This document shows positions 1,182-35,447 of a stretch of DNA of 64,000 bases, one piece after another (the first letter of the stretch is position 1; each line of letters begins with the position of its first letter). The DNA lies in the NCBI GenBank assembly GCA_964627245.1, contig CAZVGS010000004.1:22806-86805 (forward strand), written 5' to 3'. The translations under genes and the position numbers were made by a program. The stretch is from an uncultured Gammaproteobacteria bacterium. GTDB taxonomy: Bacteria; Patescibacteriota; Microgenomatia; Levybacterales; GWA1-39-11. The notes beneath the pieces are model-generated. The model worked only from the letters and a program-made list of their open reading frames with translations. It made no database searches and had not been told where the DNA came from.

Positions 1182-3139
1182 GTCTTCGCGAGTACAGTTC
1201 ACATATCAGAAGATGCACGCATAAACACTGGAAGATAATAACAGGAATTATTATTACCATTTTGTTTGTATTGGTTGGAATATTACCACAGCTTTTTTAT
1301 TCAGATAAAATATTTGATGCAAGCAAACTTACTTCATATTCAAAGATAAAAACGAGCGATAATAGAAGTTACTTTAATGTAAATAGCGAAAATGGCTATC
1401 TTTATAAATCAAATAAGATACATGAAGATGCTGTAAGGGATTTTTTAAGACAAAAATTTACAGATCAAGGTAAGTATATTGTTCCCGACGATATAGTGAA
1501 TAATAGCACCGTTATTAGAAGTGAAAAAAGTTCCAGTTTAACTAGTAACGAACACTATTTTCTAGAGCAGACATTAAATGGCATTCCTATATATGGCAGT
1601 TCTATCGTTGTCCATCTAAGAAATAAAAATGAAATATACTCAACATCAGGAAATATAATTTTAACAAAGGACACAACCTTACCTGTTTTATCAAAAGAAA
1701 GTGCAAAAGAAATAGCTTTAAATGATTCACTTATTTCTGTTCCATTACAGACATTTGTGATAAGAGATGAAAATACCATTTACTATAATAAAGGTTTACT
1801 TGAAGATGGGGAGGATTTTACAAACCGGATAGCCATTTCATTTTTTGTTGATTCTAATACTAAGCCAATTTATTACTCAACATTTTATATTGTTGATCTT
1901 GAGAATGGGGAAATATTATATAAAGAAGATCAATTGAAGGAATCGCTTAATAGAACAGTTTATAATTGCAGCGGCAGCAGTTGCAGCACTGCTGCAAGAA
2001 CAGAAGGGAGCTCATCGTCAGGAATTGCCGAAGCTGATTCTGCATACAATATTTTAGGAGATGTATATAATTTTTTCCTCCAAAGTTTTAATAGGGATAG
2101 CTTTGATGGAAATGGGGCCCCATATATTGCTTATGTCAATTTTCCAGGCATTAGTTCTATGCAATGTCCAAATGCTGCATGGACAGGTGCTGAGATGATC
2201 TTTTGTGCAGGGCTTGTAACTCCAGACATCTCATGGCATGAGCTTACTCATGCGATGACTAGCCGTACCGCAGGACTTAAATATGAAAAGCAGTCAGGTG
2301 CTCTTAACGAAAGCATCTCAGACATTTTTGCCACATCATCAGATAATAATTGGACAATAGGTGAAGGGTCAGCAATCGGTATTAAAAGAAGTGTAAGCGA
2401 TCCTCCATCAATACCAAAATCTCCAAGGCAGCCAGACAGATTATTTTCCAATTATTACTACTGCGGTGGATTGACAACGGTTTGCGACAAAAATGCCAAT
2501 GATATGTGCGGTGTACATATTAATAGTGGAATTATGAACAAAACATTTTACCTTATGACAGAAGGCGGAAACTTTAACGGATGTAATATATCAGGAATTG
2601 GCAGGAAAAGAAGTAATGACATAATATATTCAGCCTTAACAAACTATCTTACAAGTACGTCTAATTTTTATGACATGTATTCCTCAATTTTGCAGTCATG
2701 CGCAGATCTTTATGGATCAGGATCAGATATATGTAAGGAAGTTCAGAAGGCAGCTCAAGCAACAGAGCTGGACCAGCAAACCACAGGTTCGCAGGCAGGT
2801 CCTAGTTGTTCAGGCGCTGTAGCAAAACCTGCAACTTGCTCGGGAGCTCCAACCTCAGAACCTTTGCCAACATTGGCCGGGCTGCCCACCTCAACTCCAA
2901 CTCCTCCATTGGGTGCGACTTCAACTCCAACATTACCGCCCGGAACCACAGCAACTCCAACACCTACCCCGGTATCTGGGTCAGCTACTTCAACTCCAAC
3001 CCCTTCAGGCGGAATATTCAAGCCGAAGGGGACCCCAACTCCTACCCCTGATCAATATTTTAGTTGTGCACCGGACCCCAAATGTATAAGTAACGGAAAA
3101 AGTATTCAGCTATGTCCGCTTATATGTACTCCAAAGTGA
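1178..3139 (+). CDS. secreted/membrane-anchored zinc metalloprotease, thermolysin (M4) family, with Pro/Thr-rich linker and Cys-rich C-terminus
   Basis: HExxH motif (WHELTHAMT) followed by GALNESISDIFA, matching the thermolysin GxxNEAISD third zinc ligand. N-terminal TM anchor. C-terminal TPTPTP low complexity. Five Cys in the last 28 aa. Confidence 0.85.
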   Translation: MSLREYSSHIRRCTHKHWKIITGIIITILFVLVGILPQLFYSDKIFDASKLTSYSKIKTSDNRSYFNVNSENGYLYKSNKIHEDAVRDFLRQKFTDQGKYIVPDDIVNNSTVIRSEKSSSLTSNEHYFLEQTLNGIPIYGSSIVVHLRNKNEIYSTSGNIILTKDTTLPVLSKESAKEIALNDSLISVPLQTFVIRDENTIYYNKGLLEDGEDFTNRIAISFFVDSNTKPIYYSTFYIVDLENGEILYKEDQLKESLNRTVYNCSGSSCSTAARTEGSSSSGIAEADSAYNILGDVYNFFLQSFNRDSFDGNGAPYIAYVNFPGISSMQCPNAAWTGAEMIFCAGLVTPDISWHELTHAMTSRTAGLKYEKQSGALNESISDIFATSSDNNWTIGEGSAIGIKRSVSDPPSIPKSPRQPDRLFSNYYYCGGLTTVCDKNANDMCGVHINSGIMNKTFYLMTEGGNFNGCNISGIGRKRSNDIIYSALTNYLTSTSNFYDMYSSILQSCADLYGSGSDICKEVQKAAQATELDQQTTGSQAGPSCSGAVAKPATCSGAPTSEPLPTLAGLPTSTPTPPLGATSTPTLPPGTTATPTPTPVSGSATSTPTPSGGIFKPKGTPTPTPDQYFSCAPDPKCISNGKSIQLCPLICTPK

Positions 3140-4164: not shown

Positions 4165-4196
4165 ACAAAAAAACAGCGTAAACGCTGTTAAATTTA
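4165..4196. terminator. bidirectional rho-independent terminator between convergent dnaJ-like gene and pilin gene
   Basis: Perfect inverted repeat AACAGCGT/ACGCTGTT (4172-4179 / 4182-4189). It is flanked by an A-run upstream and a T-rich run downstream. Confidence 0.6.
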
Positions 4197-4214: not shown

Positions 4215-4691
4215 TTATCTTGTAACTGAAATTACTGCGCCTCCTTCAGCATCTGGAGCTGTTACAGTTACTCTTCCTGCTGCTGTCTGAAGAATTTCAT
4301 ATTGTGTGTCATAGTCTTCGCATCCATCTCCATCACCATCAACATCCCAAGCTCCTGTTTGTGGATCTACAGGTAGTTGTGCGATATATTGAGGGGCAAT
4401 ATCCGGACATAGGTCTACATCTCCACCGACTGTATCACTTCCAATATTTGTTGCTGTTGCCGGAATTGCTAGCGGCGTTAAATCACCATTATTATCGACT
4501 GCAAATTGCCATACACCGTTGAGGATAGCATTAACATCGCTTGCCCTTTGGGTGTTATTGGCTTGTTCAAATTGTCTTGCAGGATTTATGGCGATAAGAG
4601 TAATGGCAAGAAGGACAGCTAAGATTCCAATAACAACAAGAAGCTCAATAAGTGTAAACCCTTTTTGGAATTTAGCGCGGGCAGTTTTCAT
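4215..4691 (-). CDS. type IV pilin (prepilin with N-terminal methylation motif, C-terminal disulfide loop)
   Basis: N-terminus KGFTLIELLVVIGILAVLLAI (class III signal, Glu at +5). Two Cys near the C-terminus form the D-region. Confidence 0.85.
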   Translation of the reverse strand: MKTARAKFQKGFTLIELLVVIGILAVLLAITLIAINPARQFEQANNTQRASDVNAILNGVWQFAVDNNGDLTPLAIPATATNIGSDTVGGDVDLCPDIAPQYIAQLPVDPQTGAWDVDGDGDGCEDYDTQYEILQTAAGRVTVTAPDAEGGAVISVTR

Positions 4692-4762
4692 ATCTATTTA
4701 ATGATAACCATAATTAAAAAACCTTGTCAATAGGCAAATTTTGCCTCAAATACAACTCATGA

Positions 4763-5452
4763 TCACATTCGAAGAAGCATTATTCCAAGAATAGCAAAAA
4801 GAACAATAAAAATTCCCAACATAGTATAAAGTCTAACGTTTGGTTTTTTTGATTGTGTAGCACCTTTTTTATCTGGAAAATTTTGTGTTACTGTTTTAGT
4901 TCTTTCTACTGGAATCATATTAAATTGCTTTAGGTGATCGGTGCGCTTTAGAAGTTGTGATGCATTTTCGGTCGTCAAATTTCTTATTAAGCCTTGATCT
5001 TGTCCAAGCATCTGGTAAGGAATTACCCAGTCAATTGAGAAAAAGCACTTCTCGAATCCTAGTTTTAGTTCCCTGTATACATCATAGTTGGCTGCTATCA
5101 CTTTGACGTCTTTTTCAATTGTGTACTCTTTTGATAATGCGCTCTCGAATGGGACAGTATCCAAAAATTTATCAACCTCTTCCTTCAAATCTTCCCGGCT
5201 AAGATTCATAAAATCCTTTTCAAAAGTTATGTTGGGGGAGAGAAGCATTGTTATAGATGCAGGAGCTAATTGATATTGGTCTACAAAACTTTTTATCTGA
5301 TTTATCAGTGAAGCACCATTTATGACATCCATGTCTCTGACTGAAGTTGAGAGGAATGCAAGGCTTACGACAAGAGTTAGACCTGTTTCGTAAAAATAAA
5401 ATCCATTTTTATCCAGATACAAAAATCCTGGTTGTTTTTTTACAAAATCCAT
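4763..5452 (-). CDS. hypothetical tail-anchored membrane protein inside the pilus operon (possible pilus assembly accessory protein)
   Basis: C-terminal TM segment (LYTMLGIFIVLFAILGIMLL). Sits between pilin genes on the same strand. No recognisable motif. Confidence 0.45.
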   Translation of the reverse strand: MDFVKKQPGFLYLDKNGFYFYETGLTLVVSLAFLSTSVRDMDVINGASLINQIKSFVDQYQLAPASITMLLSPNITFEKDFMNLSREDLKEEVDKFLDTVPFESALSKEYTIEKDVKVIAANYDVYRELKLGFEKCFFSIDWVIPYQMLGQDQGLIRNLTTENASQLLKRTDHLKQFNMIPVERTKTVTQNFPDKKGATQSKKPNVRLYTMLGIFIVLFAILGIMLLRM

Positions 5453-5533
5453 ATTATGAAAATTTCTAAGTACTGTAATTTCTAATTAATCTAGGTTTAT
5501 AAATCAGGTCAATTAGGTTAATTAGTAATTTAT

Positions 5534-5905
5534 TCATATCTCCTTCCATGAAGTAGCAGTTAGAGTGTTATTACTCGTATCAACTATTACTTGTATTGTT
5601 CTTGTAAAATTATTGACGGTACCTTTTGATATAACCGTTTTTGGATTAGTTCCGTTAACAGTTATGACTGCTTCTCCATTCTCAATCGTAAGAGTCTCGC
5701 CACTATAATCCGGATCTCTTAGTAATTTAATCATAGCAGTTTCTGCGCCACTTTCCGCAATGTTTAATGAGTTTGAGCCTTGATAAACTTTATCTGTTCC
5801 TGTCGAACTGTTTATAACAAGAGCTATCGACGCAGTTGTAACAACGACCGCAATGACCATATATATAAGTAAAATTACCAGTGTTTGGCCTTTTTGTTTT
5901 CTCAT
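5534..5905 (-). CDS. minor pilin-like protein (degenerate prepilin N-terminus)
   Basis: N-terminus KGQTLVILLIYMVIAVVV resembles a prepilin leader plus hydrophobic helix but lacks Glu+5. 4-nt overlap with the upstream pilin gene. Confidence 0.5.
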   Translation of the reverse strand: MRKQKGQTLVILLIYMVIAVVVTTASIALVINSSTGTDKVYQGSNSLNIAESGAETAMIKLLRDPDYSGETLTIENGEAVITVNGTNPKTVISKGTVNNFTRTIQVIVDTSNNTLTATSWKEI

Positions 5906-6417
5906 CTTAAGCCTGCTGTTGTTTGAAAATTTTGTTCGTCGGCAATTCCTTCTTTTCTGATATTTCCGGAAATCGTAAAATTTATTCTGACGGTATCTTT
6001 TGCACTATCTGTTCCTACTTTCGTAAAAACCAAATCTGAGATAGATGATCCATAGCCGTTAAGATTGAACGTGCCACTTGGATTTGATGTCACTAAGTTC
6101 CCGCTGCTTGTTGAATATGTATGATTTTCGCCATTAATAACGAGTACCAAATTCGCTGAAGAACTGCCGAATAACGCAGGTTCAATTATTGAATCGGCTC
6201 TTCCGACATCATATATAAAGCGCGAATATATATATCTTCCATCATCGGCTACATTTGATGTATTTGTAGAACTTAGCTGATTTTCTATTATTGCAATAAA
6301 TATCTGCGTGAATATTACGATAAGAATTGTTAGAAGACCCATATATATAAGAAGTTCGACTAAAGTAAATCCCGATTGACTCTTAGCGGATGGATTGGAT
6401 TTATGTTCTTTCATCAT
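5902..6417 (-). CDS. minor (pseudo)pilin with prepilin-type N-terminal cleavage/methylation motif
   Basis: SGFTLVELLIYMGLLTILIVIF motif. ATGA overlap with the giant pilin-like gene. Confidence 0.8.
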   Translation of the reverse strand: MMKEHKSNPSAKSQSGFTLVELLIYMGLLTILIVIFTQIFIAIIENQLSSTNTSNVADDGRYIYSRFIYDVGRADSIIEPALFGSSSANLVLVINGENHTYSTSSGNLVTSNPSGTFNLNGYGSSISDLVFTKVGTDSAKDTVRINFTISGNIRKEGIADEQNFQTTAGLR

Positions 6418-9383
6418 GGCGAGTAGTTAAATGAAGTATCCAGTATTGTTGGCGTAACATTATTGTCGGTTGTCGAGAAAAACGCTTTGTATTTGACGCA
6501 CTGTGCCGGATTCTGAAATCCTGAAACACCGCTTAAAGGTATGCTTCCTCCTGTTGATGGAAAGCGAGTCGTGTTGGTGCCGTCGGGTCCTACAAAAGTG
6601 TAGGTTGAATTACTGCAAGACCCGCTAACAGGCAAGGTTGCTGCAACTTGAAACTCAAGAGTAGTGTTAGCAGGAGTTGTTGAGTTAACGCTCAGTCTGT
6701 TCAAAGCAACAACTGAGCCCAAATCTTGAATTGCAGATTCGTACGTCCCGGAGCTTAGATATGTACCATCAGGACCTCCTTGTATAATTTGAAGTTCGTT
6801 ATCGGCAGTGTTTCCTATCATATAAACGAATCTGTCTCCATCCAGTTCGGAAACCGACGTAAGATCATTAAATCCCGAGTCAAATTGAACTCCACCGCAG
6901 TAAGTTGGTGTCAACTCGTTACTTGTATTCAGTACTTGGTACTCGCGTGTATTATTTGAGTCAGATGTTCCGTCTTTTCCTACAAGAACAGCACGAAGAC
7001 CTTCAAAAACTGTAAGTGATCTCCGGGGGAACAGTTGGGCATCAGCACCGCTTCCATAGTAAAAGCCGCTTGTAGGTCCCGTTGAAGGACTTCCTGATAG
7101 AAATGACGGCGAATTTTTGTTGGAAGTATTTAGAATGTAAAATTGCATGCTATCAGGATCATTGTCATTGTTTGAGTCAATGCCGCCGTTTGAGGAAATA
7201 TAAGCTCTAGTTCCATCGCCAGTTCCATAAACCGAATTTGCTGCTTCTTCAGTTCCTGAATCGGAATTAAAATCATATGAGCTTATCCTTTTCCAATTAC
7301 TATTTCCGCCCGATATCCTTCCGCAAGCGCTGTCGCTGATAGCGGGGGAGGATGATGTCGTTGGAATGTCGGTAACGTTAACGATGTTAAATTCGGGATT
7401 TGTTCCGGCACCAACCGCAACATAAACATACGTATCAGTTCCAACCCTGACAGGATAAATGTCGTTGCTTGCATAAAGCTCTATATTTCCTCCATCAGAA
7501 CAATCAAGGTGTACAGGGGAAGTTGTATCAGACCAGCTTGTCCCCGTCTGGCCTTGGCTATATTTTCTATCAGTACCTGAACCCGGATTGCAGTCATAAC
7601 CGTCAAGCTGGATTCTACAGCCTATCATATCCAGTCCTTGCGAGGTTGTTTTGCCGTCAATGTTTGACAGATCAAAAACGTAAAGATAACCCCCCGAAGT
7701 TACGTACCCGCGGTCATTTAATACCGCAAGAGAAGTGCCCCCGTATCCGAAAGGCGCTTGGTCGTTGAGATCTCCCCCGCTGTAATGTATTTTGACAGCT
7801 GCCCAGTCGAGATAGAAATCCCGGGATGTACTGCTTGCAACATTAACAACTCTGAGCCTAAAGTTGGAATTGCTTAAGTCGCTTTCAGACCAACTGTGTC
7901 CCCAGTCATCAGAAGATCCACCGAGAGTGTAGGATGCTTCCGAGGTAGAGAGAGTAGGCGTTGATTGGGCATTTGTCCAGGTGTTTCCGCCATCCCAAGA
8001 TAGTTCAACGCACATTCTCGGGGAGTTTGAGGTACTGTCTACCCGAGCGTCAAGCCTTACTTCAATTCCCTCTATTGATGCACCCGAGGGAACAGGCAAG
8101 TTGTAATTGTAGTATCTGTGCTTATCCTTATCAGTCCCCGTGCAATTTGTTCCTGTGCCGTTACCGCTATTGCTGTCTATAGCAAAAGACCCGTTATCGG
8201 TATAGCCTCTATTCGCATTTGACTGAAAGCCATCATTATCTCCGCCATTGTCGTCAGTATTAGAACTTGGATTTTGAAATCCCGTATCGTGAGATCCGGC
8301 AGTATTGAACATGTTTGTATTGAAGAAAGTCTTGTATTTATAGATTCCGTTAATATAGTCTTGGTACTCGCCGTTATTAGTAGTGTCGTTACTGCCGTTA
8401 TTATCATCCACAAGTACTGCAATTACTTCGCGGTCAGCTTTTGAAGTTGCAATGAGAGCGTACATATTTTCAGAAGATGATCTGTAATATTGAATTGCAT
8501 TCGTTTTGTAATTATTGTCAATGCCGGGGCTCGTTGGAACCAGTCCGGGGTCGCTGTACTTTGCCGGATCAAGTGTAAATATGCCTCTAAGCGAAGGTGA
8601 GGGAATTTCCGTATCCGCAGTGACAAGTATATGCGACATTTTCACGGATGTTGAATCGGTGGGAGAAGTAGCAACAAAAGTCTGATTTGGGGTAGCAATG
8701 CTTGTAGCACTTGCAGTTGCAATGACTGCGACGGGAGGACCATCGGGAAGAGAAATTGTTGCAGAGGAAAAAGCAGGGGAGCACCATTGTCCTTTAGTGT
8801 TTGTAGATAGCCTTACTTCTCCGCCGGTTGCATCAGCAACTTCGGTAGTTGCGTAAATTCCCTCGTCAAAATCCTCAACGCTTGTTTGGGTTTGCGCTTC
8901 ATTTGCAAGATAGCGTGTAACGTATATAGTTGAATCAACAGAAGAATTATAGGGCTGACCCCAGGTAACACTTATATCAACGCGTTTTGTTGACGGATCA
9001 AGGCTTCCTCCTGTTTCGACGACAACTCCATTTGAGTCCCGGTAAACATCGCTTACAGTTATGCTTCTTGTAAAATCATTTATGGTTTCATCACCTGAAG
9101 CAAGGGACCAAGACGTGCCGGAAATTTGCGGGTGATAATCTCCATTCACAGCAAATATTCCCCATCCCTGATTTCTCACATTTCTCACAACTTCCTCTGC
9201 TTCTTTCATAAGAGCGATTGCCTGAACCCTTTGTCCTTGCTGTGCCTTGCCTTGTTTTGAGGAAATGAGTCCTGTCAGCAAAGCAGGCAGCATAATTGCC
9301 GTTATTGCTATTACTAACAATATCTCAACAAGCATTTGACCCCTGCTATTTTTGATTTTATTCGAAATTGGTAACTGTGCCAT
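6414..9383 (-). CDS. giant (989 aa) prepilin-like protein, S/T/N/G/D-rich; candidate pilus-tip adhesin / PilY1-analogous minor pilin
   Basis: N-terminus RGQMLVEILLVIAITAIMLPALL has Gly, a hydrophobic helix and Glu+5. The long remainder is low in hydrophobic residues and rich in Ser/Thr/Asn/Gly/Asp. Embedded in the pilB-pilC-pilin operon. Confidence 0.7.
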   Translation of the reverse strand: MAQLPISNKIKNSRGQMLVEILLVIAITAIMLPALLTGLISSKQGKAQQGQRVQAIALMKEAEEVVRNVRNQGWGIFAVNGDYHPQISGTSWSLASGDETINDFTRSITVSDVYRDSNGVVVETGGSLDPSTKRVDISVTWGQPYNSSVDSTIYVTRYLANEAQTQTSVEDFDEGIYATTEVADATGGEVRLSTNTKGQWCSPAFSSATISLPDGPPVAVIATASATSIATPNQTFVATSPTDSTSVKMSHILVTADTEIPSPSLRGIFTLDPAKYSDPGLVPTSPGIDNNYKTNAIQYYRSSSENMYALIATSKADREVIAVLVDDNNGSNDTTNNGEYQDYINGIYKYKTFFNTNMFNTAGSHDTGFQNPSSNTDDNGGDNDGFQSNANRGYTDNGSFAIDSNSGNGTGTNCTGTDKDKHRYYNYNLPVPSGASIEGIEVRLDARVDSTSNSPRMCVELSWDGGNTWTNAQSTPTLSTSEASYTLGGSSDDWGHSWSESDLSNSNFRLRVVNVASSTSRDFYLDWAAVKIHYSGGDLNDQAPFGYGGTSLAVLNDRGYVTSGGYLYVFDLSNIDGKTTSQGLDMIGCRIQLDGYDCNPGSGTDRKYSQGQTGTSWSDTTSPVHLDCSDGGNIELYASNDIYPVRVGTDTYVYVAVGAGTNPEFNIVNVTDIPTTSSSPAISDSACGRISGGNSNWKRISSYDFNSDSGTEEAANSVYGTGDGTRAYISSNGGIDSNNDNDPDSMQFYILNTSNKNSPSFLSGSPSTGPTSGFYYGSGADAQLFPRRSLTVFEGLRAVLVGKDGTSDSNNTREYQVLNTSNELTPTYCGGVQFDSGFNDLTSVSELDGDRFVYMIGNTADNELQIIQGGPDGTYLSSGTYESAIQDLGSVVALNRLSVNSTTPANTTLEFQVAATLPVSGSCSNSTYTFVGPDGTNTTRFPSTGGSIPLSGVSGFQNPAQCVKYKAFFSTTDNNVTPTILDTSFNYSP

Positions 9384-9846
9384 ATTTGTTAAGAGTAATA
9401 GTCTCGGTTGATCCGCTTGGAATATTTGTGATGGTTATAGAATTTGAACCGTCAATAAAATTTACTACCTCACCGCTATCTGACGCGAAAAGAACCGCAT
9501 CATTTTGAAATGTGGAGGAAAGACTGTATGACTCAGGAATCGGAACTGAAAAATTCGCCGTATCCGCCGGATTGTACTCTATACCATGAAACATTATATA
9601 TTGATCTGATAGGACTTTTATGCCGTAGTTGTCAGGTTCTCCCCGTCCTTCGGTGTCTCCAACCATAGCCTTTATTTGCTGAGTTTTGAGATCCGATATA
9701 AGGACAGTTGTTGCGGAACTGCTGGTTGCCACAATTTGTATATTTGACAAACTCACAATTCCTATTCCAAAAAGAAGAGACAATATTCCTATAACGAGCA
9801 TAAGCTCGATCAGCGTAAGTCCTCTTTGTCTTTCAAGTGCTTTCAT
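9358..9846 (-). CDS. type IV pilin / pseudopilin (prepilin N-terminal motif)
   Basis: RGLTLIELMLVIGILSLLFGIGIV motif. Sits directly downstream of pilC. Confidence 0.8.
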   Translation of the reverse strand: MKALERQRGLTLIELMLVIGILSLLFGIGIVSLSNIQIVATSSSATTVLISDLKTQQIKAMVGDTEGRGEPDNYGIKVLSDQYIMFHGIEYNPADTANFSVPIPESYSLSSTFQNDAVLFASDSGEVVNFIDGSNSITITNIPSGSTETITLNKYGTVTNFE

Positions 9847-10917
9847 CTAGCGTATACCAACCTGACCTATTAGACCGTAAATAGGTGCAATGATTGAGAG
9901 CATCATCCCTCCTACAAGTACGCCAACAAAAATAAGCATAATTGGTTCAAGAAGAGTAGTTAATGTCTTTAAGGTTTTGTCAACTTGATAGTCTAAATAT
10001 TCAGCTACATCTTTCATTGACTTATCAAGAGAACCGCTTTTTTCTCCTGCTTCCGTAATTTTTATCATAATACTCGGGAATACATCCTTGGCCTGCTTAA
10101 GTCCTTCGGATAGTTCGCTTCCTGCAAGAACAACCTCTTTGCAATGGAGAATAGATTTGGCAACGTCTTTTTTTAGGACTACATCCTGGGCAAGTTCAAG
10201 AGCTGCGGCAATCGGTATTCCGGCATTGAGCAGTAAATACAGGCTTCTGGCAAATCTTGTTATATCAATTTGCGTTGCCAATGTTGAAACAAGTGGAAGC
10301 ATAAATAAGAAATGCAAAAATTCCCTTTTTTTCTCCCTATACAAAACAAAAATTAAAACTGCAGTTATGACTGTCCCTAGAGCAACAAAAAGTGTGTAGT
10401 TTGTTACTAGTTGTGACAAACCGATCAGCATCTTGGTCGGTAAAGGCAGGTCTGCGTTAAGGCGTAAAAATACGTTTGATATTTTTGGCACAACAACTAT
10501 TAGTATCATAAGAAGTACTCCGGCAAAAACAAACATGATAAGTACAGGATATGTTAGCGCGCCTTTTATTTTATCTGTGAATTCGGAATCTTTTTTTATT
10601 GAAGATTTAAGATCTTCCAGGGTTACATCTAGAGTTCCCGCTTCTTCAGAAGCTTTTATGAGATTGACAGTTATATTGTCAAAGATTCTGGGAAATTTGG
10701 CGAAAGCATCCGCGACGTGATTTCCTTGAGAGAGATCTGCTTTTAACGATTCCAAAAATCGCCTCTGGTTGCCTTTGGCGTCTTCCAAAAGTGAATCAAC
10801 TACTTCAAGAATCGGAATTCCTGCAGCAAGCATAGTTGCAAGGTTGCTGACAAGACCAAGTTTGTCTGCAGTAGATATCCTTAATTTTTTTGGATCCGAG
10901 CTATTGAATAACTGCAT
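9847..10917 (-). CDS. pilC: type IV pilus assembly platform protein PilC (GspF family)
   Basis: Polytopic membrane protein with the duplicated GspF-type cytoplasmic domains. Lies immediately after pilB with a 5-nt gap. Confidence 0.85.
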   Translation of the reverse strand: MQLFNSSDPKKLRISTADKLGLVSNLATMLAAGIPILEVVDSLLEDAKGNQRRFLESLKADLSQGNHVADAFAKFPRIFDNITVNLIKASEEAGTLDVTLEDLKSSIKKDSEFTDKIKGALTYPVLIMFVFAGVLLMILIVVVPKISNVFLRLNADLPLPTKMLIGLSQLVTNYTLFVALGTVITAVLIFVLYREKKREFLHFLFMLPLVSTLATQIDITRFARSLYLLLNAGIPIAAALELAQDVVLKKDVAKSILHCKEVVLAGSELSEGLKQAKDVFPSIMIKITEAGEKSGSLDKSMKDVAEYLDYQVDKTLKTLTTLLEPIMLIFVGVLVGGMMLSIIAPIYGLIGQVGIR

Positions 10918-10922
10918 AGATA

Positions 10923-12611
10923 TTAAAGACTTTCAACTTTTGTCACGCGAAGGACTTCTTCAAGCGTGGTTACACCGCGCGCAACTTTATCCATACCATC
11001 GGCAAGCATTGTCGTCATTCCCTCCTCAACAGCTTTTTTTGCAATAACATCTGAGTCATTTTTAGCTGTAATAAGAGCTCTTACTTCTTTAGTTACTTCC
11101 AGAACTTCAAAAAGACCAAGCCTGCCGGAATATCCTGTCGAGTGGCAAATTTTGCACCCTTTACCTCTATAGAGCTTAATGCTTTCACTTTGACCGAAGT
11201 GATGCGTGATTACCGCAGGGGGTAAATTTTTTGCAAGGTCTGATCTTAGTATGGAATAAGACATTTTACACATGTCGCAAATTTTCCTGATAAGTCTTTG
11301 TGCGACAATAACATTGACGGTTGATGCGACAAGGAAAGGTTCAACTTTCATATCTATCAGACGGGGAAGAGCAGTTGCAGCATCATTTGTATGGAGCGTT
11401 GACAATACCAAATGTCCTGTCAAAGCTGCATTAACGGCGATGCCTGCGGTTTCGCTGTCTCTTATTTCTCCCACAAAAACAACATTCGGATCCTGCCGGA
11501 GTATGGAGCGCAGGCCATTTGCGAAAGTAAGGTCTGTTTTTTGGTTTACGTTGATTTGATTGACTCCTTTAATTCTATATTCCACTGGGTCTTCGATTGT
11601 TGTAATGTTTTTTTCCCTTGTATTTAGAATTTTAAGAATAGCGTAAATTGAAGTAGTTTTTCCGCTGCCTGTCGGGCCTGTTGAGAGAACCATGCCGTAG
11701 GATTTTGTGTATGCATTCGTTACTTTTTTAAGATCGCTTTCGCTCATCCCCAAGTCAATTAAGGAAAATTGTCTGAAGTGTGATGCAAGAAGTCTTAAAA
11801 CCGCTTTTTCTCCATCGGCAATCGGTAAGACAGAAACCCTGATATCCAAATTCTCTTCTTCAAGTTTTATGCGCATCTTTCCATCCTGAGGACTTAGATG
11901 TTCATCAGTCCTTAATTTAGACAAAATTTTTATTCTTGAGATGATTCTTTCGTGAAAGTTTTTTGGAAGGTACAAAACATCATGCAGTATCCCGTCGATC
12001 CTAAATCTTACAAGCGAGTCTTTTTCTTCAGGTTCTATATGAATGTCCGAGACCTTATCTTGATAACCGAATTCAACTAGAAGGTTCACAATTTTTTCAA
12101 TCGGGGCTGCATCAGTAACCTTTGATATATCAGAAATTCCCAGCTCTCTTTGAAGCAATTGTTCGAATGATCTTTGAAGATCGCGTTTGTATATCCTTAA
12201 AATATTTTCGATATCGCGTTCGGTAGTAAGATAGGGAATAACTTTTAGACTTGATTTTTTGCTTATGCCCGTTAGTACCTCTATTTTTCTGGGATCAACT
12301 ATTGCAACCTTGAGTCCCTGTTGGGTTCTTTCAAAAGGTATAACCTTGTGTTTTCTTGCAATTTTTTCGGGAACAATTCTAAAAACGTCTTCCGGTATGG
12401 AAATCTTGGAAAGTACAACGAATGGAATATGGAGGAAATCAGCAATAAGTATTCCCAGATTCTCGTCCGAAATCACATCTTTCTCGATCAACGCGTCGGC
12501 GAGTGTTACATTGGAGTTTTTTGCAAATTCTGCCAGTTCTTGAAGATCACGCTCAGTGGCAAGACCTGTTTTTAGAATTAATGCTCTGATCTGATCATCA
12601 GCTAGAACCAT
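10923..12611 (-). CDS. pilB: type IV pilus assembly ATPase PilB (GspE family)
   Basis: GspE N-domain. Walker A LSTGPTGSGKTTS. Asp box VGEIRD. His box. Tetracysteine Zn motif CDMC...CKIC. Confidence 0.9.
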   Translation of the reverse strand: MVLADDQIRALILKTGLATERDLQELAEFAKNSNVTLADALIEKDVISDENLGILIADFLHIPFVVLSKISIPEDVFRIVPEKIARKHKVIPFERTQQGLKVAIVDPRKIEVLTGISKKSSLKVIPYLTTERDIENILRIYKRDLQRSFEQLLQRELGISDISKVTDAAPIEKIVNLLVEFGYQDKVSDIHIEPEEKDSLVRFRIDGILHDVLYLPKNFHERIISRIKILSKLRTDEHLSPQDGKMRIKLEEENLDIRVSVLPIADGEKAVLRLLASHFRQFSLIDLGMSESDLKKVTNAYTKSYGMVLSTGPTGSGKTTSIYAILKILNTREKNITTIEDPVEYRIKGVNQINVNQKTDLTFANGLRSILRQDPNVVFVGEIRDSETAGIAVNAALTGHLVLSTLHTNDAATALPRLIDMKVEPFLVASTVNVIVAQRLIRKICDMCKMSYSILRSDLAKNLPPAVITHHFGQSESIKLYRGKGCKICHSTGYSGRLGLFEVLEVTKEVRALITAKNDSDVIAKKAVEEGMTTMLADGMDKVARGVTTLEEVLRVTKVESL

Positions 12612-12735: not shown

Positions 12736-13143
12736 ATGCGGATTTCCTGCCTAAACTGGGTTAAGGGGTATTGTGCCCAAATACTTTCGATGACTGCCTT
12801 TTTATATTACCCATTATTTCTAGTTGAATTCTGGTATAAAGACGTATTATTTGGTCTTATAAATTTTTTTGTCCGCTTTAACCGCTATGTAATTTCTCTA
12901 TTATCATTAGGTCTTTTAACAAGAACTTTTTTCAAGCCCTTAAAAAATGAATACAGAGAGGGCTTGGTTGTGTTCTCGATTTTTTTCGGAATGGCAATAA
13001 AGACGGTACTTATAAGTGTTTTATTAAGTATCGTTCTCATCTTTATTCTGATTGAGTGTTTGATAGTTGTATTGATAGCCTTTATCCCGGTAGCGCTTTT
13101 GTTTGTTGTATTGGGAAGCGATTCTCATGTTTGGTATGAATAA
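12736..13143 (+). CDS. small polytopic membrane protein (hypothetical); overlaps by 41 nt, in another frame, the hydrophobic N-terminus of the ClpC-like gene
   Basis: Three to four predicted TM helices. A long ORF in an AT-rich background. Whether it is a separate gene or a frameshift/fusion with 13103-15493 cannot be decided from sequence. Confidence 0.45.
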   Translation: MRISCLNWVKGYCAQILSMTAFLYYPLFLVEFWYKDVLFGLINFFVRFNRYVISLLSLGLLTRTFFKPLKNEYREGLVVFSIFFGMAIKTVLISVLLSIVLIFILIECLIVVLIAFIPVALLFVVLGSDSHVWYE

Positions 13144-15493
13144 ATATTATTTTCTATATTACTTTTTTGACAATCCGGTTATACGCTGGGTCAGGGTAGT
13201 AATTTTTCTTGGAGTTGGTTTGTTTGTTTACTTAAATCTTGAAAATCCCTTGCTTATTCTAAAATTATTGCCTGTGTATTTTGTTCTTATTCTTCAAGAA
13301 TTATTTATTCATTTCAAATTGGAGAATGCAAAGCCTCTTATGACAATCCATGATGATATAAATCATTCAATAGATACAGTCGAGTATAGAATGCGCTCTA
13401 TCCTTGAAAGAATAGACGACACTAAAAAGGTTATTCATGAAATTTCAGGTGACAGTGAAATTAAGTATTTATTAAGACTCTTAAATATAAATCCTGAAGT
13501 AACAGAAAACATTAATGAGGAAAATCTGCTTAGAAAAGCGTACACGTTAGTTATGAAAGTGGGAGGTAAGAATATCCACCCCATTGATATATTTGTTGCT
13601 TATTTAATTCTTCAGGATCAGATAACCAAGAATCTTTACAACAATGAAATAACCGAATTCGATGTGGTCACATTGCTTTCTTGGGTAAGAAGAAAATACA
13701 GAGTCGATATGCAAAAGCACGACGGGCTGCATTTCACAGGCAGCGGTGTTTTTGATTTTTTTGTATACGGCTGGAGCGCAGAGCTCTCGCGCTATGCTTC
13801 AAATTTCACAAGAGAAGTACTTTCTGGCAGACACCCAGAGCCTATCGGAAGAAATAGGGAATATGACCTTTTAGTAACTGCCTTATCCAAAAGTTCATCC
13901 AGTAACGCCTTGATTGTTGGTGAACCTGGAGTTGGAAAAACAACGCTTATATCCCAATTGGTTTTGGATTCAAATTTAGGCAATTTGCCCAATAAATTAT
14001 CAAACAAGATAGTTTTTAAATTTTCCCCTGAAAGATTACTTTCAGGTGTTAACAATCAAGGGGAGTTAGAGGAAAGATTAGTTAGTCTGATCTCTGAGTT
14101 ATATCATGCGGGGAATATTGTCGTTTACATTCCTAATATTGAAAATATTTTTGGCGGAGGAGGGCTTAGTATGGATTTGTCAGGTGCTTTAAGTGAATAC
14201 CTAAAAAGCAGTAGGATAAAAATAATTGGCAGTACAACTGAGGCATTTTATAAAGAATATATTTATCCAAAACAGGAATTAAAGGATCTATTTGATATAG
14301 TTGCGGTTAGAGAGCCAAATGAGGATGGTGCAATATTTATGCTTCTTGAGAAAGCTAATGAGATTGAGATGGAAAGTGGTGTCAAAATAAGCTTTGATGC
14401 AATAAAAAGCACATATTCATTGTCTGACTCATATATTAACGATGGAACGGTTCTTCCCGGGCGGGCAGTAAAACTTCTTGAGGATGTTGTGTCTTATGCA
14501 TCAATTCATGGAGACAGAAAAATAACAAAGAAAAATGTACAAAGCCTTGTTGAGGAAAAAACAAAAATTCTTCTGTCAGAACCGACTCAGGAAGAAAGTG
14601 AAGAACTTCTTAATCTTGAAACCGAACTTCATAAAGATGTTGTTTCTCAAAATGAAGCAATCAGTGCAATTGCCGATGCTATGAGAAGAATCAGAAGCGG
14701 AATTAGTAATGAAAAAAAACCGATTGCATCTTTTCTTTTTTTGGGTCCAACGGGTGTGGGTAAGACCGAAGCGGCGAAATCACTTGCCAAATCGTACTTT
14801 GGTGATGAAAAAAAAATGGTAAGGCTTGACATGACAGAATTTCAAAGTCCCGATTCGGCAAAAAGGTTAATTGAAGAAGGGGAAATATTTGTCGGCAAAG
14901 TTTTGGAAAACCCATTCACCGAGATACTTTTAGATGAATTTGAGAAAGCTGATCCGGATGTGCACAACCTGTTTCTTCAAATCCTTGATGAAGGGAGTAT
15001 GACCGATAGTTTGGGAAGGAGTATTTCATTTAAGAATTCAGTAATAATTGCTACTTCAAACGCCGGCAGTGAATTTATTAGAGAAACATACAGAAATTCA
15101 GCAGACCAGTTGGCATTTAAGGACAAACTAGTTGAAAAGATACTTAAAGATGGGATTTTCAGGCCAGAGCTTATTAACAGATTTGATGATGTAATTGCCT
15201 TCAAGCCACTTGAGAAAGAAGATGTCACAAAGGTTTCAAAGCTTTTCTTGGATGAGTTAGGCAGTAGGCTTTCTGAAAAACAAATAAACCTCTCTTATGA
15301 CGAAGCGGTGTGCGTATATATAGCTGAAAATGCTTACAGCATAGAATTTGGAGCAAGAAATATAAGAAGGTTTATCCAGCAATCCATAGAAAATCAAATT
15401 TCAAAGCTTATCCTTTCAAATGAGCTGAATAGTCAAGATACCGTGAAAATTTCAGTAGAGAATAACAGTCTTGTTATTGGTAAGCAAATTTAA
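13103..15493 (+). CDS. ClpC/ClpB-like double-ring AAA+ ATPase with hydrophobic (membrane-embedded?) N-terminal extension and degenerate D1 Walker B
   Basis: D1 Walker A IVGEPGVGKTTLISQL. D2 Walker A LFLGPTGVGKTEAAKSLA and Walker B ILLDEFEKADPDVHNLFLQILDEG. C-terminal ELINRFDDVIAFKPLEKEDV. The first ~75 codons are hydrophobic (2-3 TM) and the true start may be internal. The D1 region lacks an obvious hhhhDE Walker B. Confidence 0.8.
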   Translation: MLYWEAILMFGMNKYYFLYYFFDNPVIRWVRVVIFLGVGLFVYLNLENPLLILKLLPVYFVLILQELFIHFKLENAKPLMTIHDDINHSIDTVEYRMRSILERIDDTKKVIHEISGDSEIKYLLRLLNINPEVTENINEENLLRKAYTLVMKVGGKNIHPIDIFVAYLILQDQITKNLYNNEITEFDVVTLLSWVRRKYRVDMQKHDGLHFTGSGVFDFFVYGWSAELSRYASNFTREVLSGRHPEPIGRNREYDLLVTALSKSSSSNALIVGEPGVGKTTLISQLVLDSNLGNLPNKLSNKIVFKFSPERLLSGVNNQGELEERLVSLISELYHAGNIVVYIPNIENIFGGGGLSMDLSGALSEYLKSSRIKIIGSTTEAFYKEYIYPKQELKDLFDIVAVREPNEDGAIFMLLEKANEIEMESGVKISFDAIKSTYSLSDSYINDGTVLPGRAVKLLEDVVSYASIHGDRKITKKNVQSLVEEKTKILLSEPTQEESEELLNLETELHKDVVSQNEAISAIADAMRRIRSGISNEKKPIASFLFLGPTGVGKTEAAKSLAKSYFGDEKKMVRLDMTEFQSPDSAKRLIEEGEIFVGKVLENPFTEILLDEFEKADPDVHNLFLQILDEGSMTDSLGRSISFKNSVIIATSNAGSEFIRETYRNSADQLAFKDKLVEKILKDGIFRPELINRFDDVIAFKPLEKEDVTKVSKLFLDELGSRLSEKQINLSYDEAVCVYIAENAYSIEFGARNIRRFIQQSIENQISKLILSNELNSQDTVKISVENNSLVIGKQI

Positions 15494-30522: not shown

Positions 30523-30578
30523 AAACGGAGGCTTCTTCACACAATTTAGTTTTGTGTGCGGAAGTCTCCGTTTTTTTG
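30523..30578 (+). promoter_or_regulatory. long leader hairpin followed by U-tract (intrinsic-terminator/attenuator-like) between the promoter and the start codon of repeat-protein gene 1
   Basis: AACGGAGGCTTC (30524-30535) pairs with GAAGTCTCCGTT (30561-30572), with one G-U wobble. The loop contains an inner CACACAA/TTGTGTG stem. TTTTTTT follows. Confidence 0.55.
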
Positions 30579-30666
30579 TTTCTTGGGGCTACCGGAAATA
30601 AAAATAGGCGGGAGAGATGAAGTGCTCTTGAAAAAGAAATCTTATACAAAAGGAGGTGAAATAAAT

Positions 30667-31887: not shown

Positions 31888-32012
31888 TTTGGTTAATGTA
31901 GGGTGAATTGCTAGCACTTCGGCAGGACACCCTACAACCAAAATAGGAATAGATAGAAGATAAAAAATATAGAAAACAATTTAATAATAGGACAATTAAA
32001 AAATAAATAATT

Positions 32013-35341: not shown

Positions 35342-35353
35342 TTTTCAAACCGC

Positions 35354-35376
35354 AAAAACCCCGAAAGGGGTTTTTT
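35354..35376 (+). terminator. rho-independent terminator after the LPATG protein gene
   Basis: AAAAACCCC GAAA GGGGTTTTTT hairpin with a U-tract. Confidence 0.75.
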
Positions 35377-35447
35377 GATGGTTTGGATAACTTATCCTGA
35401 GCATGCCGAAGGGTTGATTTATCCACATTTTTTGGTAGTATCGCAAC

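What the first reader, a model, noticed from the sequence alone, without database searches (positions are those of the whole stretch)
4215..12611. Type IV pilus operon with a 989-aa prepilin-like protein and four prepilin-signature genes but no pilD/pilT/pilMNO in the window
pilB, pilC, a pilin, a 989-aa pilin-like protein, two minor pilins, a tail-anchored unknown protein and a distal pilin are packed on one strand with 4-nt overlaps.

The 989-aa protein has a genuine class-III signal/helix (G..LVE with Glu+5). An enormous Ser/Thr/Asn/Gly-rich globular part follows. This would be a candidate tip adhesin or DNA-binding competence pilin in a lineage thought to depend on pili for host attachment and DNA uptake.

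The 229-aa tail-anchored protein (4763-5452) has no precedent I can name among PilM/N/O and may be a lineage-specific assembly factor.

The prepilin peptidase and retraction ATPase must lie elsewhere.
Basis: partly seen in the sequence, partly recalled or inferred. Interest (0 to 1): 0.55.

Follow-up and report, generated by a model that had tools for sequence, protein, structure and literature searches.

The report
Pilus operon with giant propeller pilin
This is a real type IV pilus gene cluster from an ultrasmall (Microgenomates-type) bacterium, in which one pilus subunit carries a roughly 820-residue beta-propeller head that probably sits at the pilus tip as an adhesin; this design is already known from related bacteria, so the case is interesting but not unprecedented.

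Summary
Window 4215-12611 (minus strand) carries pilB, pilC, five pilin-like genes and a 229-aa membrane protein. No prepilin peptidase, PilT or sequence-detectable PilM/N/O lies in the 64 kb or in about 15 kb of extra flank.

The 989-aa protein is a modular minor pilin:
- Its class III signal (Gly-1, Glu+5) is kept in 65/65 orthologs.
- It matches no Pfam, NCBIfam or PDB sequence family.

The same eight-gene order recurs in most of 74 Microgenomates-type genome loci. The giant pilin is as conserved as PilC (median 57% vs 58.5%).

The 123-aa pilin never has Glu+5 (0/47), as in GspK. The 158-aa distal pilin, with its own promoter and terminator, is the likely major pilin.

The tip-adhesin reading is supported and a DNA-receptor reading is not (pI 4.4). 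The closest precedents are modular pilins, Saccharibacteria PilX2 and PilY1. Verdict: new member of a known kind, moderate interest.

The parts
10923..12611 (-). pilB: extension ATPase (562 aa) with an N-terminal MshEN/N1-type domain, a Walker A motif and a tetracysteine motif
   Evidence: Pfam T2SSE 8.7e-128 and MshEN 1.5e-13. NCBIfam PilB 2.7e-159 and GspE 5.2e-155, both below the equivalog cut-offs. Sequence.
9847..10917 (-). pilC: inner-membrane platform protein (356 aa, two T2SSF domains)
   Evidence: Pfam T2SSF 1e-47 with 2 stretches. GspF and PilC NCBIfam hits of 1e-72 to 1e-60.
9358..9846 (-). Minor pilin, 162 aa (QRG|LTLIE); occupies the GspH/FimU-like position
   Evidence: N_methyl 4.3e-6. 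TIGR02532 3e-5 and a weak GspH hit. Glu+5 in 44/48 orthologs. Weak E. coli GspH and GspI hits fall on this class.
6414..9383 (-). Giant modular minor pilin, 989 aa, 105 kDa, pI 4.4, with 10 invariant Cys
8874..9383 (-). Giant pilin, residues 1-170: a 15-residue leader, the class III cleavage motif RG|QMLVE, a long alpha1 helix (15-72) and an antiparallel beta-sheet (81-166). This is the pilin module.
   Evidence: DSSP of the model. Gly-1 and Glu+5 in 65/65 orthologs and Gln+1 in 56/65. E20 and P33 are invariant.
8301..8858 (-). Giant pilin, residues 176-361: linker and the first blades of the seven-bladed beta-propeller
7764..8300 (-). Giant pilin, residues 362-540: beta-sandwich domain inserted into the propeller, with an Asp-box-like SWDGGNTW at residue 462. 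It is an optional module that is missing from the roughly 810-aa orthologs.
   Evidence: Orthologs of about 810 aa lack residues ~362-539, apart from about three residues that the alignment places inside the gap. Motif. No significant Pfam match.
6729..7763 (-). Giant pilin, residues 541-885: the remaining propeller blades, the most conserved part (69% mean identity to the query)
6417..6728 (-). Giant pilin, residues 886-989: C-terminal beta-sandwich with a nearly invariant last dozen residues (T977, P978, D982, N986, S988, P989)
5902..6417 (-). Minor pilin, 171 aa (SG|FTLVE); occupies the GspJ/PilW-like position
   Evidence: N_methyl 1.2e-6. Glu+5 in 46/49 orthologs. Weak E. coli GspJ hits fall on this class.
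5534..5905 (-). Minor pilin-like protein, 123 aa (KG|QTLVI) without Glu+5; GspK/PilX-like candidate for the cap of the tip complex
   Evidence: The +5 residue is T, I, M, S, V or L and never E in 47 orthologs, and Gln+1 occurs in 41/47. N_methyl only 0.015.
4763..5452 (-). GspL/PilM-like platform protein, 229 aa: a cytoplasmic actin-like (two RNase-H-like subdomains) domain at 7-177, a disordered basic linker at 183-203, and a C-terminal transmembrane helix at 206-228
4215..4691 (-). Probable major pilin, 158 aa (KG|FTLIE), with two Cys in the C-terminal part
   Evidence: Best N_methyl hit, 1.5e-8. GspG and ComGC are the best full-family hits. Phe+1 in 52/53 and Glu+5 in 51/53 orthologs. Present in 1-3 tandem copies in relatives.
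4701..4730 (-). Near-consensus sigma-70-type promoter (TTGACA-18-TATCAT, 11/12) directly upstream of the 158-aa pilin gene
   Evidence: This is a consensus match only; the total number of promoter-like sites in the region is not above the shuffled expectation.
4172..4189 (-). Intrinsic-terminator-like hairpin plus T-run that ends the operon

Best explanation
**What it is.** The region encodes the core of a type IV pilus machine of a monoderm-like Patescibacteria (Microgenomates/Levybacteria-type) cell.

**Proposed mechanism (inferred by analogy with the T4aP and T2SS tip complexes):**
1. A prepilin peptidase encoded elsewhere cleaves the five pilin-like proteins after the conserved Gly.
2. The four minor subunits (162 aa, the 989-aa giant, 171 aa, and the 123-aa subunit that lacks Glu+5) form a priming complex on the PilC platform.
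3. The Glu-less 123-aa subunit caps this complex.
4. The giant pilin inserts through its N-terminal pilin module and displays a head of about 820 residues. The head is a seven-bladed propeller with an inserted beta-sandwich and a C-terminal beta-sandwich.
5. PilB polymerises the 158-aa major pilin underneath and pushes the tip complex outward. PilB would be held at the membrane by the 229-aa GspL/PilM-like protein, whose cytoplasmic domain would contact the N-terminal domain of PilB as GspL contacts GspE.
6. No outer-membrane secretin is present, so a 90-kDa head can be carried at the tip.
7. The head most likely binds a surface ligand, probably a glycan, on a partner cell or substrate.

**Shown versus inferred.** Shown: gene content, signal motifs, predicted folds, and conservation of gene order and sequence. 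Inferred: processing, tip location, the PilB-GspL-like contact, and the ligand.
For: - **Machinery.** PilB and PilC are assigned with very strong HMM scores.
- **Class III signal motifs.** They are conserved across orthologs. The giant has Gly-1 and Glu+5 in 65/65, and the 123-aa class has Glu+5 in 0/47 (N-termini).
- **Extracellular character.** Ten invariant Cys and 39% Gly/Ala/Ser/Thr content fit an exposed extracellular protein.
- **Modular head.** The inserted domain is a discrete module that is absent from the roughly 810-aa orthologs.
- **Conserved operon.** The order PilB-PilC-162-giant-171-123-GspL-like-major pilin recurs in most of 74 distinct genome loci.
- **Major pilin.** The 158-aa gene has its own near-consensus promoter and a terminator, and relatives carry tandem copies.
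- **Precedents.** Modular pilins are described in PMC8179133. TM7x PilX2, a propeller-bearing minor pilin, is required for efficient host binding (PMC11623550). PilY1 is displayed on the minor-pilin tip complex (PMC7541494; bioRxiv 10.64898/2026.09.18.752573).
Against: - No prepilin peptidase or PilT was found in about 80 kb around the operon or within 10 kb of it in any related locus, so processing and retraction are unverified.
- The giant pilin does not reach any pilin HMM threshold in Pfam or NCBIfam.
- In this window an SD-like AGGGG precedes the internal Met17. A start there would remove the cleavage site.
- The giant is as conserved as PilC (median 57% vs 58.5% over 29 loci). That is atypical for a host-specific adhesin and could instead point to a structural or priming role.
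- The link between the 229-aa protein and GspL/PilM rests on predicted fold only. hhalign against E. coli GspL gives probability 0.7%.
- No ligand information exists.
Confidence: 0.65

Rival explanations
1. The giant pilin is mainly a biogenesis factor rather than a host-specific adhesin. In this reading it is a PilY1-like primer or stabiliser covalently fused to a core minor pilin. It is needed to nucleate the tip complex and to open a path through the cell wall and S-layer, and it is conserved because its partners are the cell's own machinery and envelope.
For: - Its conservation is at machinery level (57% against PilC 58.5% and PilB 65%), while the small minor pilins lie at 39-46%.
- The propeller is its most conserved part.
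- Its position among the four minor pilins is fixed in most of the 74 loci.
- PilY1 is required for pilus biogenesis through its contact with the GspK-like minor pilin (bioRxiv 10.64898/2026.09.18.752573; PMC7541494).
- The last 12 residues of the giant are nearly invariant.
Against: - In TM7x the propeller pilin PilX2 is not needed for filament extrusion but is needed for host binding (PMC11623550).
- An optional inserted sandwich domain and lectin-type fold neighbours fit ligand binding.
- The two roles are not mutually exclusive.
Confidence: 0.2
2. The operon builds a short competence (DNA-uptake) pseudopilus, and the giant pilin is the DNA receptor.
For: - There is no pilT near the operon in the window or in any related locus, as in Com systems.
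- The single-operon layout of ATPase, platform and pilins resembles comG.
- Patescibacteria commonly encode comEC and dprA (PMC9938205).
- dprA lies 3 kb downstream in one subclade.
Against: - The giant protein and each of its domains are acidic (pI 4.05-4.78; 57 Lys+Arg against 106 Asp+Glu).
- dprA is adjacent in only 4 of the 75 related loci searched and is absent from the window.
- PilB is a full-length PilB/GspE type with an N-terminal domain and scores below the ComGA cut-off.
- No known DNA-binding pilin fold was matched.
Confidence: 0.08
3. The 989-aa protein is not a pilus subunit. It is a signal-anchored cell-surface enzyme or binding protein (for example a glycosidase-like propeller) that merely shares a hydrophobic N-terminus with pilins.
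For: - It has no pilin HMM hit.
- The best Foldseek hits include a neuraminidase and galactose oxidase.
- An internal start with an SD-like sequence is possible in this window.
Against: - Gly-1 and Glu+5 are invariant in 65 orthologs, many of which cannot start downstream.
- The model has a pilin-type helix plus sheet.
- The gene is embedded between pilin genes with 4-nt and 26-nt overlaps, in a conserved order.
- No enzyme family is matched by sequence, and identity to the fold neighbours is only 9%.
Confidence: 0.04
4. The locus is a type II secretion-like system that uses a pseudopilus to push proteins across the envelope.
For: - The gene order mimics gspE-F-H-I-J-K-L, with the G-like pilin moved to the end.
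- The 229-aa protein is closest in fold to GspL.
- NCBIfam GspE and GspF hits are nearly as good as the PilB and PilC hits.
Against: - No GspC, GspD secretin or GspM was found.
- All GspE, GspF, GspG and GspH scores are below the equivalog cut-offs.
- This lineage is thought to lack an outer membrane (general knowledge).
- A 90-kDa head on a pseudopilin has no T2SS counterpart.
Confidence: 0.03

Closest known systems
Modular type IV pilins (Streptococcus sanguinis PilB with a vWA module and PilC with a lectin module; concept of Raynaud et al. 2021, PMC8179133; PMC9934059)
   Same: - An N-terminal pilin module with a class III signal peptide is fused to bulky functional module(s).
- The protein is encoded among the minor pilins of a monoderm T4P operon.
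- It is expected to be exposed at the tip and to mediate adhesion.
   Different: - The appended part here is far larger (about 820 aa against about 300-400).
- It consists of a seven-bladed propeller with a nested sandwich plus a C-terminal sandwich.
- It has no database signature, so it would have been missed by the InterPro survey in that paper.
Nanosynbacter lyticus TM7x PilX2 and PilX1 (Saccharibacteria T4P-2 and T4P-1; PMC11623550)
   Same: - Same superphylum.
- Each is the largest pilin of its locus. PilX2 carries a seven-bladed beta-propeller and PilX1 a jelly-roll-like sandwich.
- Both are candidate tip adhesins, with a role in host binding shown for PilX2.
   Different: - PilX1 and PilX2 were reported to lack a predicted PilD signal peptide, and the PilX2 propeller has RCC1 repeats. 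The protein here has an invariant Gly-1/Glu+5 motif and no RCC1 or any other Pfam match.
- Here both module types sit in one protein.
- TM7x loci contain recognisable PilM/N/O, PilD and PilT, whereas this locus does not.
PilY1/PilC tip adhesin of T4aP (Pseudomonas, Neisseria, Myxococcus; PMC7541494, PMC11525922, bioRxiv 10.64898/2026.09.18.752573)
   Same: - A large protein of about 1000 aa with a seven-bladed propeller.
- It is associated with a set of four minor pilins, including a Glu5-less GspK-like one.
- It is proposed to prime assembly and to sit at the tip.
   Different: - PilY1 is not a pilin. It has a Sec signal and is held by a C-terminal plug strand bound to PilK. Here the propeller is covalently fused to a pilin module.
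- The PilY1 family model (PF05567) is not matched.
GspL (T2SS) and PilM/PilN (T4aP), with their fused forms such as MshI of the MSHA pilus (the MshI comparison is from general knowledge)
   Same: The 229-aa protein has an actin-like cytoplasmic domain followed by one transmembrane helix. Its closest solved folds are the GspL cytoplasmic domain and PilM. It is encoded right after the GspK-like pilin, as gspL follows gspK.
   Different: - There is no detectable sequence similarity.
- The domain is minimal (about 175 aa).
- The protein ends 1-2 residues after the membrane helix, so it has no periplasmic ferredoxin-like domain. Longer relatives carry a LytR_C domain there instead.
GspK / PilX-type minor (pseudo)pilin
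   Same: The 123-aa protein has the Gly cleavage site and the hydrophobic helix but never Glu+5, and it is the last minor pilin gene in the set.
   Different: It is much smaller (123 aa against about 330 for GspK) and lacks the alpha-domain insertion. No similarity of the globular part was detectable.

Membership tests
Type IV pilins (class III signal peptide proteins): the 989-aa protein | Short basic leader ending in Gly, then a hydrophobic segment of about 20 residues with Glu at +5 | tested here: met
   The motif reads MAQLPISNKIKNSRG|QMLVEILLVIAITAIMLP. Gly-1 and Glu+5 occur in 65/65 orthologs. E20 and P33 are invariant.
Type IV pilins (class III signal peptide proteins): the 989-aa protein | Match to the N-terminal methylation-site models (PF07963 / TIGR02532) | tested here: not met
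   There is no Pfam hit at E <= 0.1, and the only NCBIfam hit is ComGE at 0.057. One ortholog (P0049) carries a precomputed PF07963 hit. Gln at +1 instead of Phe or Met probably lowers the score.
Type IV pilins (class III signal peptide proteins): the 989-aa protein | Pilin fold: an extended alpha1 helix packed on an antiparallel beta-sheet | tested here: met
   The AlphaFold model has a helix at 15-72 and strands at 81-166, with pLDDT about 80-90 for the sheet. This is a prediction only.
Type IV pilins (class III signal peptide proteins): the 989-aa protein | Cleavage and N-methylation by a prepilin peptidase, and incorporation into the filament | not testable with these tools
   No peptidase gene lies in the window or its flanks. 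Proteomics of pili is needed.
Modular pilins (Raynaud et al. 2021) | A pilin module fused to at least one additional folded module that is not part of the pilin fold | tested here: met
   Propeller, inserted sandwich and C-terminal sandwich follow the pilin module. The insert is present or absent as a unit among orthologs.
PilY1/PilC family | C-terminal PilY1-type propeller recognised by the family model (PF05567 / IPR008707) | tested here: not met
   No Pfam family is matched by the whole protein or by its pieces.
PilY1/PilC family | Seven-bladed beta-propeller fold | tested here: met
PilY1/PilC family | A non-pilin protein (Sec signal) attached non-covalently to the minor-pilin complex | tested here: not met
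   The protein carries a class III pilin N-terminus.
GspL / PilM: the 229-aa protein | Sequence match to T2SSL, GspL_C or PilM family models, or to a reference member | tested here: not met
   No Pfam or NCBIfam hit. hhalign of the family profile against E. coli GspL gives probability 0.7%. phmmer with GspL and HofM finds nothing.
GspL / PilM: the 229-aa protein | Actin-like (RNase-H-like subdomains) cytoplasmic fold | tested here: met
GspL / PilM: the 229-aa protein | Bitopic topology: cytoplasmic domain, one transmembrane helix, then a periplasmic ferredoxin-like domain (GspL) | tested here: inconclusive
   The cytoplasmic domain and the transmembrane helix (206-228) are present, but the protein ends after the helix. 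Relatives of 350-430 aa have an extra C-terminal domain, and in several of them it matches LytR_C.
GspL / PilM: the 229-aa protein | Binding to the N-terminal domain of the assembly ATPase | not testable with these tools
   No multimer prediction was available. The operon position is conserved.
Type IVa pilus system | PilB-type ATPase, PilC platform, and major plus minor pilins | tested here: met
Type IVa pilus system | PilD peptidase, PilT retraction ATPase, PilM/N/O(/P/Q) | tested here: not met
   None was found in the window, in its flanks, or within 10 kb of the operon in the related loci. The rest of the genome could not be searched.
Type II secretion system | Secretin GspD and GspC, with GspE-M at equivalog level | tested here: not met
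   There is no secretin or GspC. All Gsp NCBIfam scores are below their cut-offs.
Com (competence) pilus | Short ComGA ATPase, ComGB, and ComGC-G pilins at equivalog level | tested here: not met
   ComGA scores 247.8 bits (cut-off 300) and covers only residues 179-442 of a 562-aa PilB-type protein. ComGB scores 144.7 (cut-off 240). The pilin hits are far below their cut-offs.

The most novel reading that the evidence does not exclude
The giant pilin could be a covalent fusion of a PilY1-like tip and priming factor to one of the four core minor pilins. It would be fixed across the whole class Microgenomatia and held under machinery-level constraint. Together with a minimal GspL-type platform protein and a gspE-F-H-I-J-K-L-like gene order, this would define a distinct, streamlined lineage of type IV filament. 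Its tip would recognise one conserved ligand (for example a cell-wall glycan common to many hosts, or the cell's own envelope during extrusion) rather than strain-specific receptors.
Probability: 0.25. Interest if true: 0.6.

Novelty: new member of a known kind. Interest (0 to 1): 0.4.

Why it matters
- **Biology.** Patescibacteria make up a large share of bacterial diversity, and almost all are uncultured. Pili are the leading candidates for how they find and hold partner cells.
- **A concrete target.** This family gives Microgenomates a single, highly conserved protein of about 1000 aa with confident predicted domains. It can be expressed and tested on glycan arrays or used as an antigen or probe.
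- **Annotation.** The supposedly missing PilM/N/O function is probably supplied by a fold-level GspL/PilM relative that sequence models do not detect. This matters for automated counts of pilus genes in these genomes.
- **Public records.** Many public gene calls truncate the giant pilin at an internal Met and so hide its pilin signal.

Tried and rejected
- **Sequence searches for the giant protein.** All were empty or insignificant:
  - Pfam, NCBIfam and PHROGs.
  - Its four pieces against Pfam at E <= 10.
  - phmmer and profile searches against PDB sequences.
- **Fold libraries.** The afdb50 fold library was not available. All three fold searches were then spent on PDB libraries, so the individual domains could not be searched separately.
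- **Which minor pilin is which.** Local hhalign compared the globular parts of the five pilin families with each other and with E. coli GspG, H, I, J and K. Nothing was significant. The best results were giant pilin module vs the 123-aa class (probability 11%) and major pilin vs GspG (9%). The H/I/J/K labels therefore rest on gene order, the Glu+5 pattern and weak N-terminal hits only.
- **229-aa family against E. coli GspL.** hhalign was not significant.
- **Search for pilD.** A motif regex written from memory and phmmer with E. coli GspO found nothing in the window or in the roughly 80 related and flanking loci that were searched.
- **Search for pilT.** phmmer with PilB found only PilB itself.
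- **Extending the contig.** Look-ups of edge genes gave about 8 kb and 7 kb of extra flank without pilus genes. The remaining part of the 100-kb NCBI contig and the complete genomes of relatives (CP064967.1, OZ246394.1) could not be read.
- **Competence link.** dprA is adjacent in only 4 of the 75 related loci searched, so a conserved link to competence genes was rejected.
- **Enzyme reading.** This was considered because of the Foldseek hits to neuraminidase and galactose oxidase. It was rejected because TM-scores are 0.2-0.29, identity is 9% and there is no family match.

Full report
**1. What is in the sequence**

Window 4215-12611 holds eight co-directional minus-strand ORFs.
- PilB (10923-12611) matches T2SSE at 8.7e-128 and has an MshEN-type N-terminal domain. 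Its best NCBIfam models are PilB (2.7e-159) and GspE (5.2e-155), both below the equivalog cut-offs. Walker A and a CxxC...CxxC motif can be read in the sequence.
- PilC (9847-10917) has two T2SSF domains.
- Three small ORFs (162, 171 and 158 aa) carry the canonical G|(F/L)TL(I/V)E signature and pass the N_methyl threshold.
- The 989-aa ORF reads RG|QMLVE.
- The 123-aa ORF reads KG|QTLVI, so it has no Glu+5.

Gene junctions are 4-nt overlaps at 5902-5905 and 6414-6417, a 26-nt overlap at 9358-9383, and one direct abutment.

Pfam scans of every other ORF of at least 110 aa in the window found no prepilin peptidase, no second T2SSE ATPase and no PilM/N/O family. phmmer with PilB and with E. coli GspO, GspL, GspM and HofM/N/O agrees. 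Contigs that extend the window by about 8 kb and 7 kb add none of these genes.

**2. Source lineage**

Homologs of the giant protein and the related loci are named Levybacteria, Woesebacteria, Roizmanbacteria, Gottesmanbacteria, Shapirobacteria, Microgenomates or Patescibacteria. The closest named relative, at 67% identity, is a Levyibacteriota MAG. Many MAG records with the same operon are titled "uncultured Gammaproteobacteria", which looks like a labelling artefact.

**3. The giant protein**

*Homologs and N-terminus*
- It has 395 detectable homologs. The best 120 are full-length, 955-1035 aa apart from one 865-aa sequence, and at least 50% identical (all but one at 55% or more).
- Their N-termini keep (K/R)-G-Q-x-L-(I/V)-E behind leaders of variable sequence.
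- In 65 orthologs from genome loci, Gly-1 and Glu+5 are invariant and Gln+1 occurs in 56.
- Public gene calls for this very sequence start at Met17 (973 aa). An AGGGG formed by the Arg-Gly codons sits just upstream of that Met. In most orthologs that position is Leu, Ser or Thr, so the family must start upstream.

*Predicted structure* (67-sequence alignment; pLDDT 84.1, pTM 0.61)
- Residues 15-72: long helix.
- Residues 81-166: antiparallel sheet. Together with the helix this is the pilin module.
- Residues about 199-885: beta-rich region.
- Residues 886-988: C-terminal sandwich.

*Fold matches*
- The best Foldseek matches are V. cholerae neuraminidase, galactose oxidase and several phage tail proteins. 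The two enzymes are propellers decorated with sandwich domains. TM-scores are low.

*Modularity and chemistry*
- Orthologs fall into two size classes. The roughly 810-aa class lacks essentially residues 362-539, which marks that stretch as a nested, optional beta-sandwich. It contains an Asp-box-like SWDGGNTW.
- All ten Cys are invariant.
- The protein is acidic throughout, with pI 4.36.
- No Pfam, NCBIfam, PHROGs or PDB sequence family is matched, whole or in pieces.

**4. The 229-aa protein**

A profile search of 1.8 billion representative proteins finds 1283 relatives. Many are 350-430 aa, with the query covering their first 225 residues or so. Several of these long forms have a C-terminal LytR_C domain.

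The AlphaFold model (pLDDT 85.6) shows three parts:
- two RNase-H-like beta-beta-beta-alpha-beta-alpha units (residues 7-177);
- a disordered basic linker;
- a transmembrane helix (residues 206-228).

It is therefore a fold-level GspL/PilM analogue with a GspL-like topology but, in this clade, no extracytoplasmic domain. The suggestion that it is an assembly factor is supported.

**5. Conservation of the operon**

A scan of one genome per species returned 74 distinct loci. In most of them the order is PilB-PilC-162-giant-171-123-GspL-like-major pilin, with one to three tandem copies of the major pilin. Exceptions:
- In a few loci pilB-pilC sit about 6 kb away.
- Three loci place the giant after the small minor pilins.

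Median identity to the window proteins over 29 complete loci:

| Protein | Median identity |
|---|---|
| PilB | 65% |
| PilC | 58.5% |
| Giant pilin | 57% |
| Major pilin | 54.5% |
| 123-aa pilin | 46% |
| 171-aa pilin | 40% |
| 162-aa pilin | 39% |
| GspL-like protein | 29% |

The giant pilin is thus as constrained as the machinery, which is unusual for an adhesin. The 123-aa class never has Glu+5 (0/47), as in GspK, whose E. coli copy reads G|VALLIV.

Weak N-terminal hits place E. coli GspG on the 158-aa class, GspJ on the 171-aa class and GspH/I on the 162-aa class. With the GspL-like gene following the Glu-less pilin, the order resembles gspE-F-H-I-J-K-L. This is an inference, because the globular parts give no significant profile matches.

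**6. The major pilin**

The 158-aa gene has four properties that point to it as the major subunit:
- It has the best pilin HMM scores, with GspG and ComGC as its best families.
- It has a near-consensus promoter in the 71-nt gap upstream (TTGACA-18-TATCAT).
- It has a hairpin plus T-run downstream.
- It is duplicated in relatives.

**7. Mechanism proposed**

After cleavage by a peptidase encoded elsewhere, the four minor subunits would nucleate on PilC. The Glu-less 123-aa subunit would sit on top, and the giant would be anchored by its pilin module. PilB, tethered by the GspL-like protein, would add major pilins beneath. With no secretin to pass, the 90-kDa head can ride at the tip and bind a ligand. 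A glycan is the most likely ligand, given the propeller-plus-sandwich architecture.

Shown here: the gene set, the motifs, the predicted folds and the conservation. Inferred: processing, tip location, the PilB contact and the ligand.

The high conservation keeps open a PilY1-like priming role (PMC7541494; bioRxiv 10.64898/2026.09.18.752573). A DNA-receptor role is disfavoured by the acidic surface composition and by the lack of conserved linkage to dprA.

**8. Comparison with what is known**

- Modular pilins are widespread, including very large ones in Patescibacteria (PMC8179133).
- In Saccharibacteria TM7x, the largest pilins of two pilus systems carry a jelly-roll-like domain (PilX1) or a seven-bladed propeller (PilX2). 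PilX2 is needed for efficient host binding but not for filament extrusion (PMC11623550).
- PilY1 is the classical propeller tip protein, but it is not a pilin.

The protein here fits the modular-pilin definition and fails the PilY1 family tests. It works like a PilY1 fused to a minor pilin. It is a new, signature-less and widely conserved member of a known kind, not a new kind of system.

**9. Verdict**

The operon is real and well resolved. One claim (the unprecedented 229-aa protein) is overturned and one (a DNA-binding pilin) is weakened. Interest is moderate (0.4).

Noticed in passing
window 30556-36734: A sortase gene (35448-36005, Pfam Sortase 4.9e-25) is flanked by secreted proteins with no Pfam match. 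The 738-aa protein (32013-34229, with proline-rich PTAPTAPTPPENTMVA repeats) ends in LPLTG plus a hydrophobic tail. The 371-aa protein (34226-35341) ends in LPATG plus a hydrophobic tail and basic residues. This is a second, sortase-dependent surface-protein or pilus locus in the same window.
   Followed up: partly
window 9335-9383 (start of the giant pilin gene): Public gene calls for this exact protein start at the internal Met17 (973 aa, P0001), which removes the leader and Gly-1. The Arg-Gly codons AGG GGT form an SD-like AGGGG just upstream of that Met, which probably misleads gene callers. Several orthologs in the database are truncated in the same way.
   Followed up: yes
L053, L057, L060, L065, L072, L075, L079 (match at about 10001-12440 in each): A subfamily of the giant pilin of about 800-830 aa lacks essentially residues 362-539 of the window protein, which is the inserted beta-sandwich. 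The rest stays 55-63% identical. One ortholog (L008) has about 150 extra residues at the C-terminus.
   Followed up: partly
P0190, P0194, P0196, P0198, P0208 and others; L002 14044-15084: The GspL/PilM-like protein occurs in short forms (220-240 aa, as in the window), medium forms (270-285 aa) and long forms (344-430 aa). Several long forms carry an extracytoplasmic LytR_C domain (PF13399, up to 36 bits). This is not the ferredoxin-like domain of GspL or PilN.
   Followed up: partly
giant pilin residues 977-989 (window 6417-6455): The last dozen residues (TPxLxDxxxNYSP) are nearly invariant, although the C-terminal domain is otherwise the least conserved part of the head. This recalls the 12-residue C-terminal plug of PilC/PilY1 that binds the GspK-like minor pilin (bioRxiv 10.64898/2026.09.18.752573). 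In the monomer model the segment is a strand of the sandwich. No complex prediction was possible.
   Followed up: no
L008-L081 record titles: Dozens of MAG records that carry this Patescibacteria-type operon are titled 'uncultured Gammaproteobacteria bacterium' or 'Pseudomonadales'. This is probably placeholder or erroneous taxonomy in the public records.
   Followed up: no
window 12736-15493: A 135-aa hydrophobic protein and a 796-aa ClpB-like AAA+ protein (AAA_2, ClpB_D2-small) with a strongly hydrophobic N-terminal extension are transcribed divergently from pilB. A second ClpB-type gene ends at window position 638 (932 aa in L006).
   Followed up: no
L007 1960-4438 (about 3-5 kb left of the window start): A 110-aa protein with a weak T4SS_pilin (PF18895) hit lies next to proteins of 714 and 640 aa with no Pfam match, just outside the window. 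This may be part of a conjugation-type system.
   Followed up: no
window 1178-3139: A thermolysin-like M4 metallopeptidase (FTP propeptide, Peptidase_M4 and M4_C domains) with an N-terminal membrane anchor lies two genes from the end of the operon. It is not conserved next to the operon in the relative L002.
   Followed up: no
L002 18917-20008; also L021, L027, L049: dprA lies about 3 kb downstream of the pilin module in one subclade only (4 of the 75 related loci searched). In that subclade pilB-pilC are separated from the pilin genes by a response regulator, a histidine kinase and other genes.
   Followed up: yes
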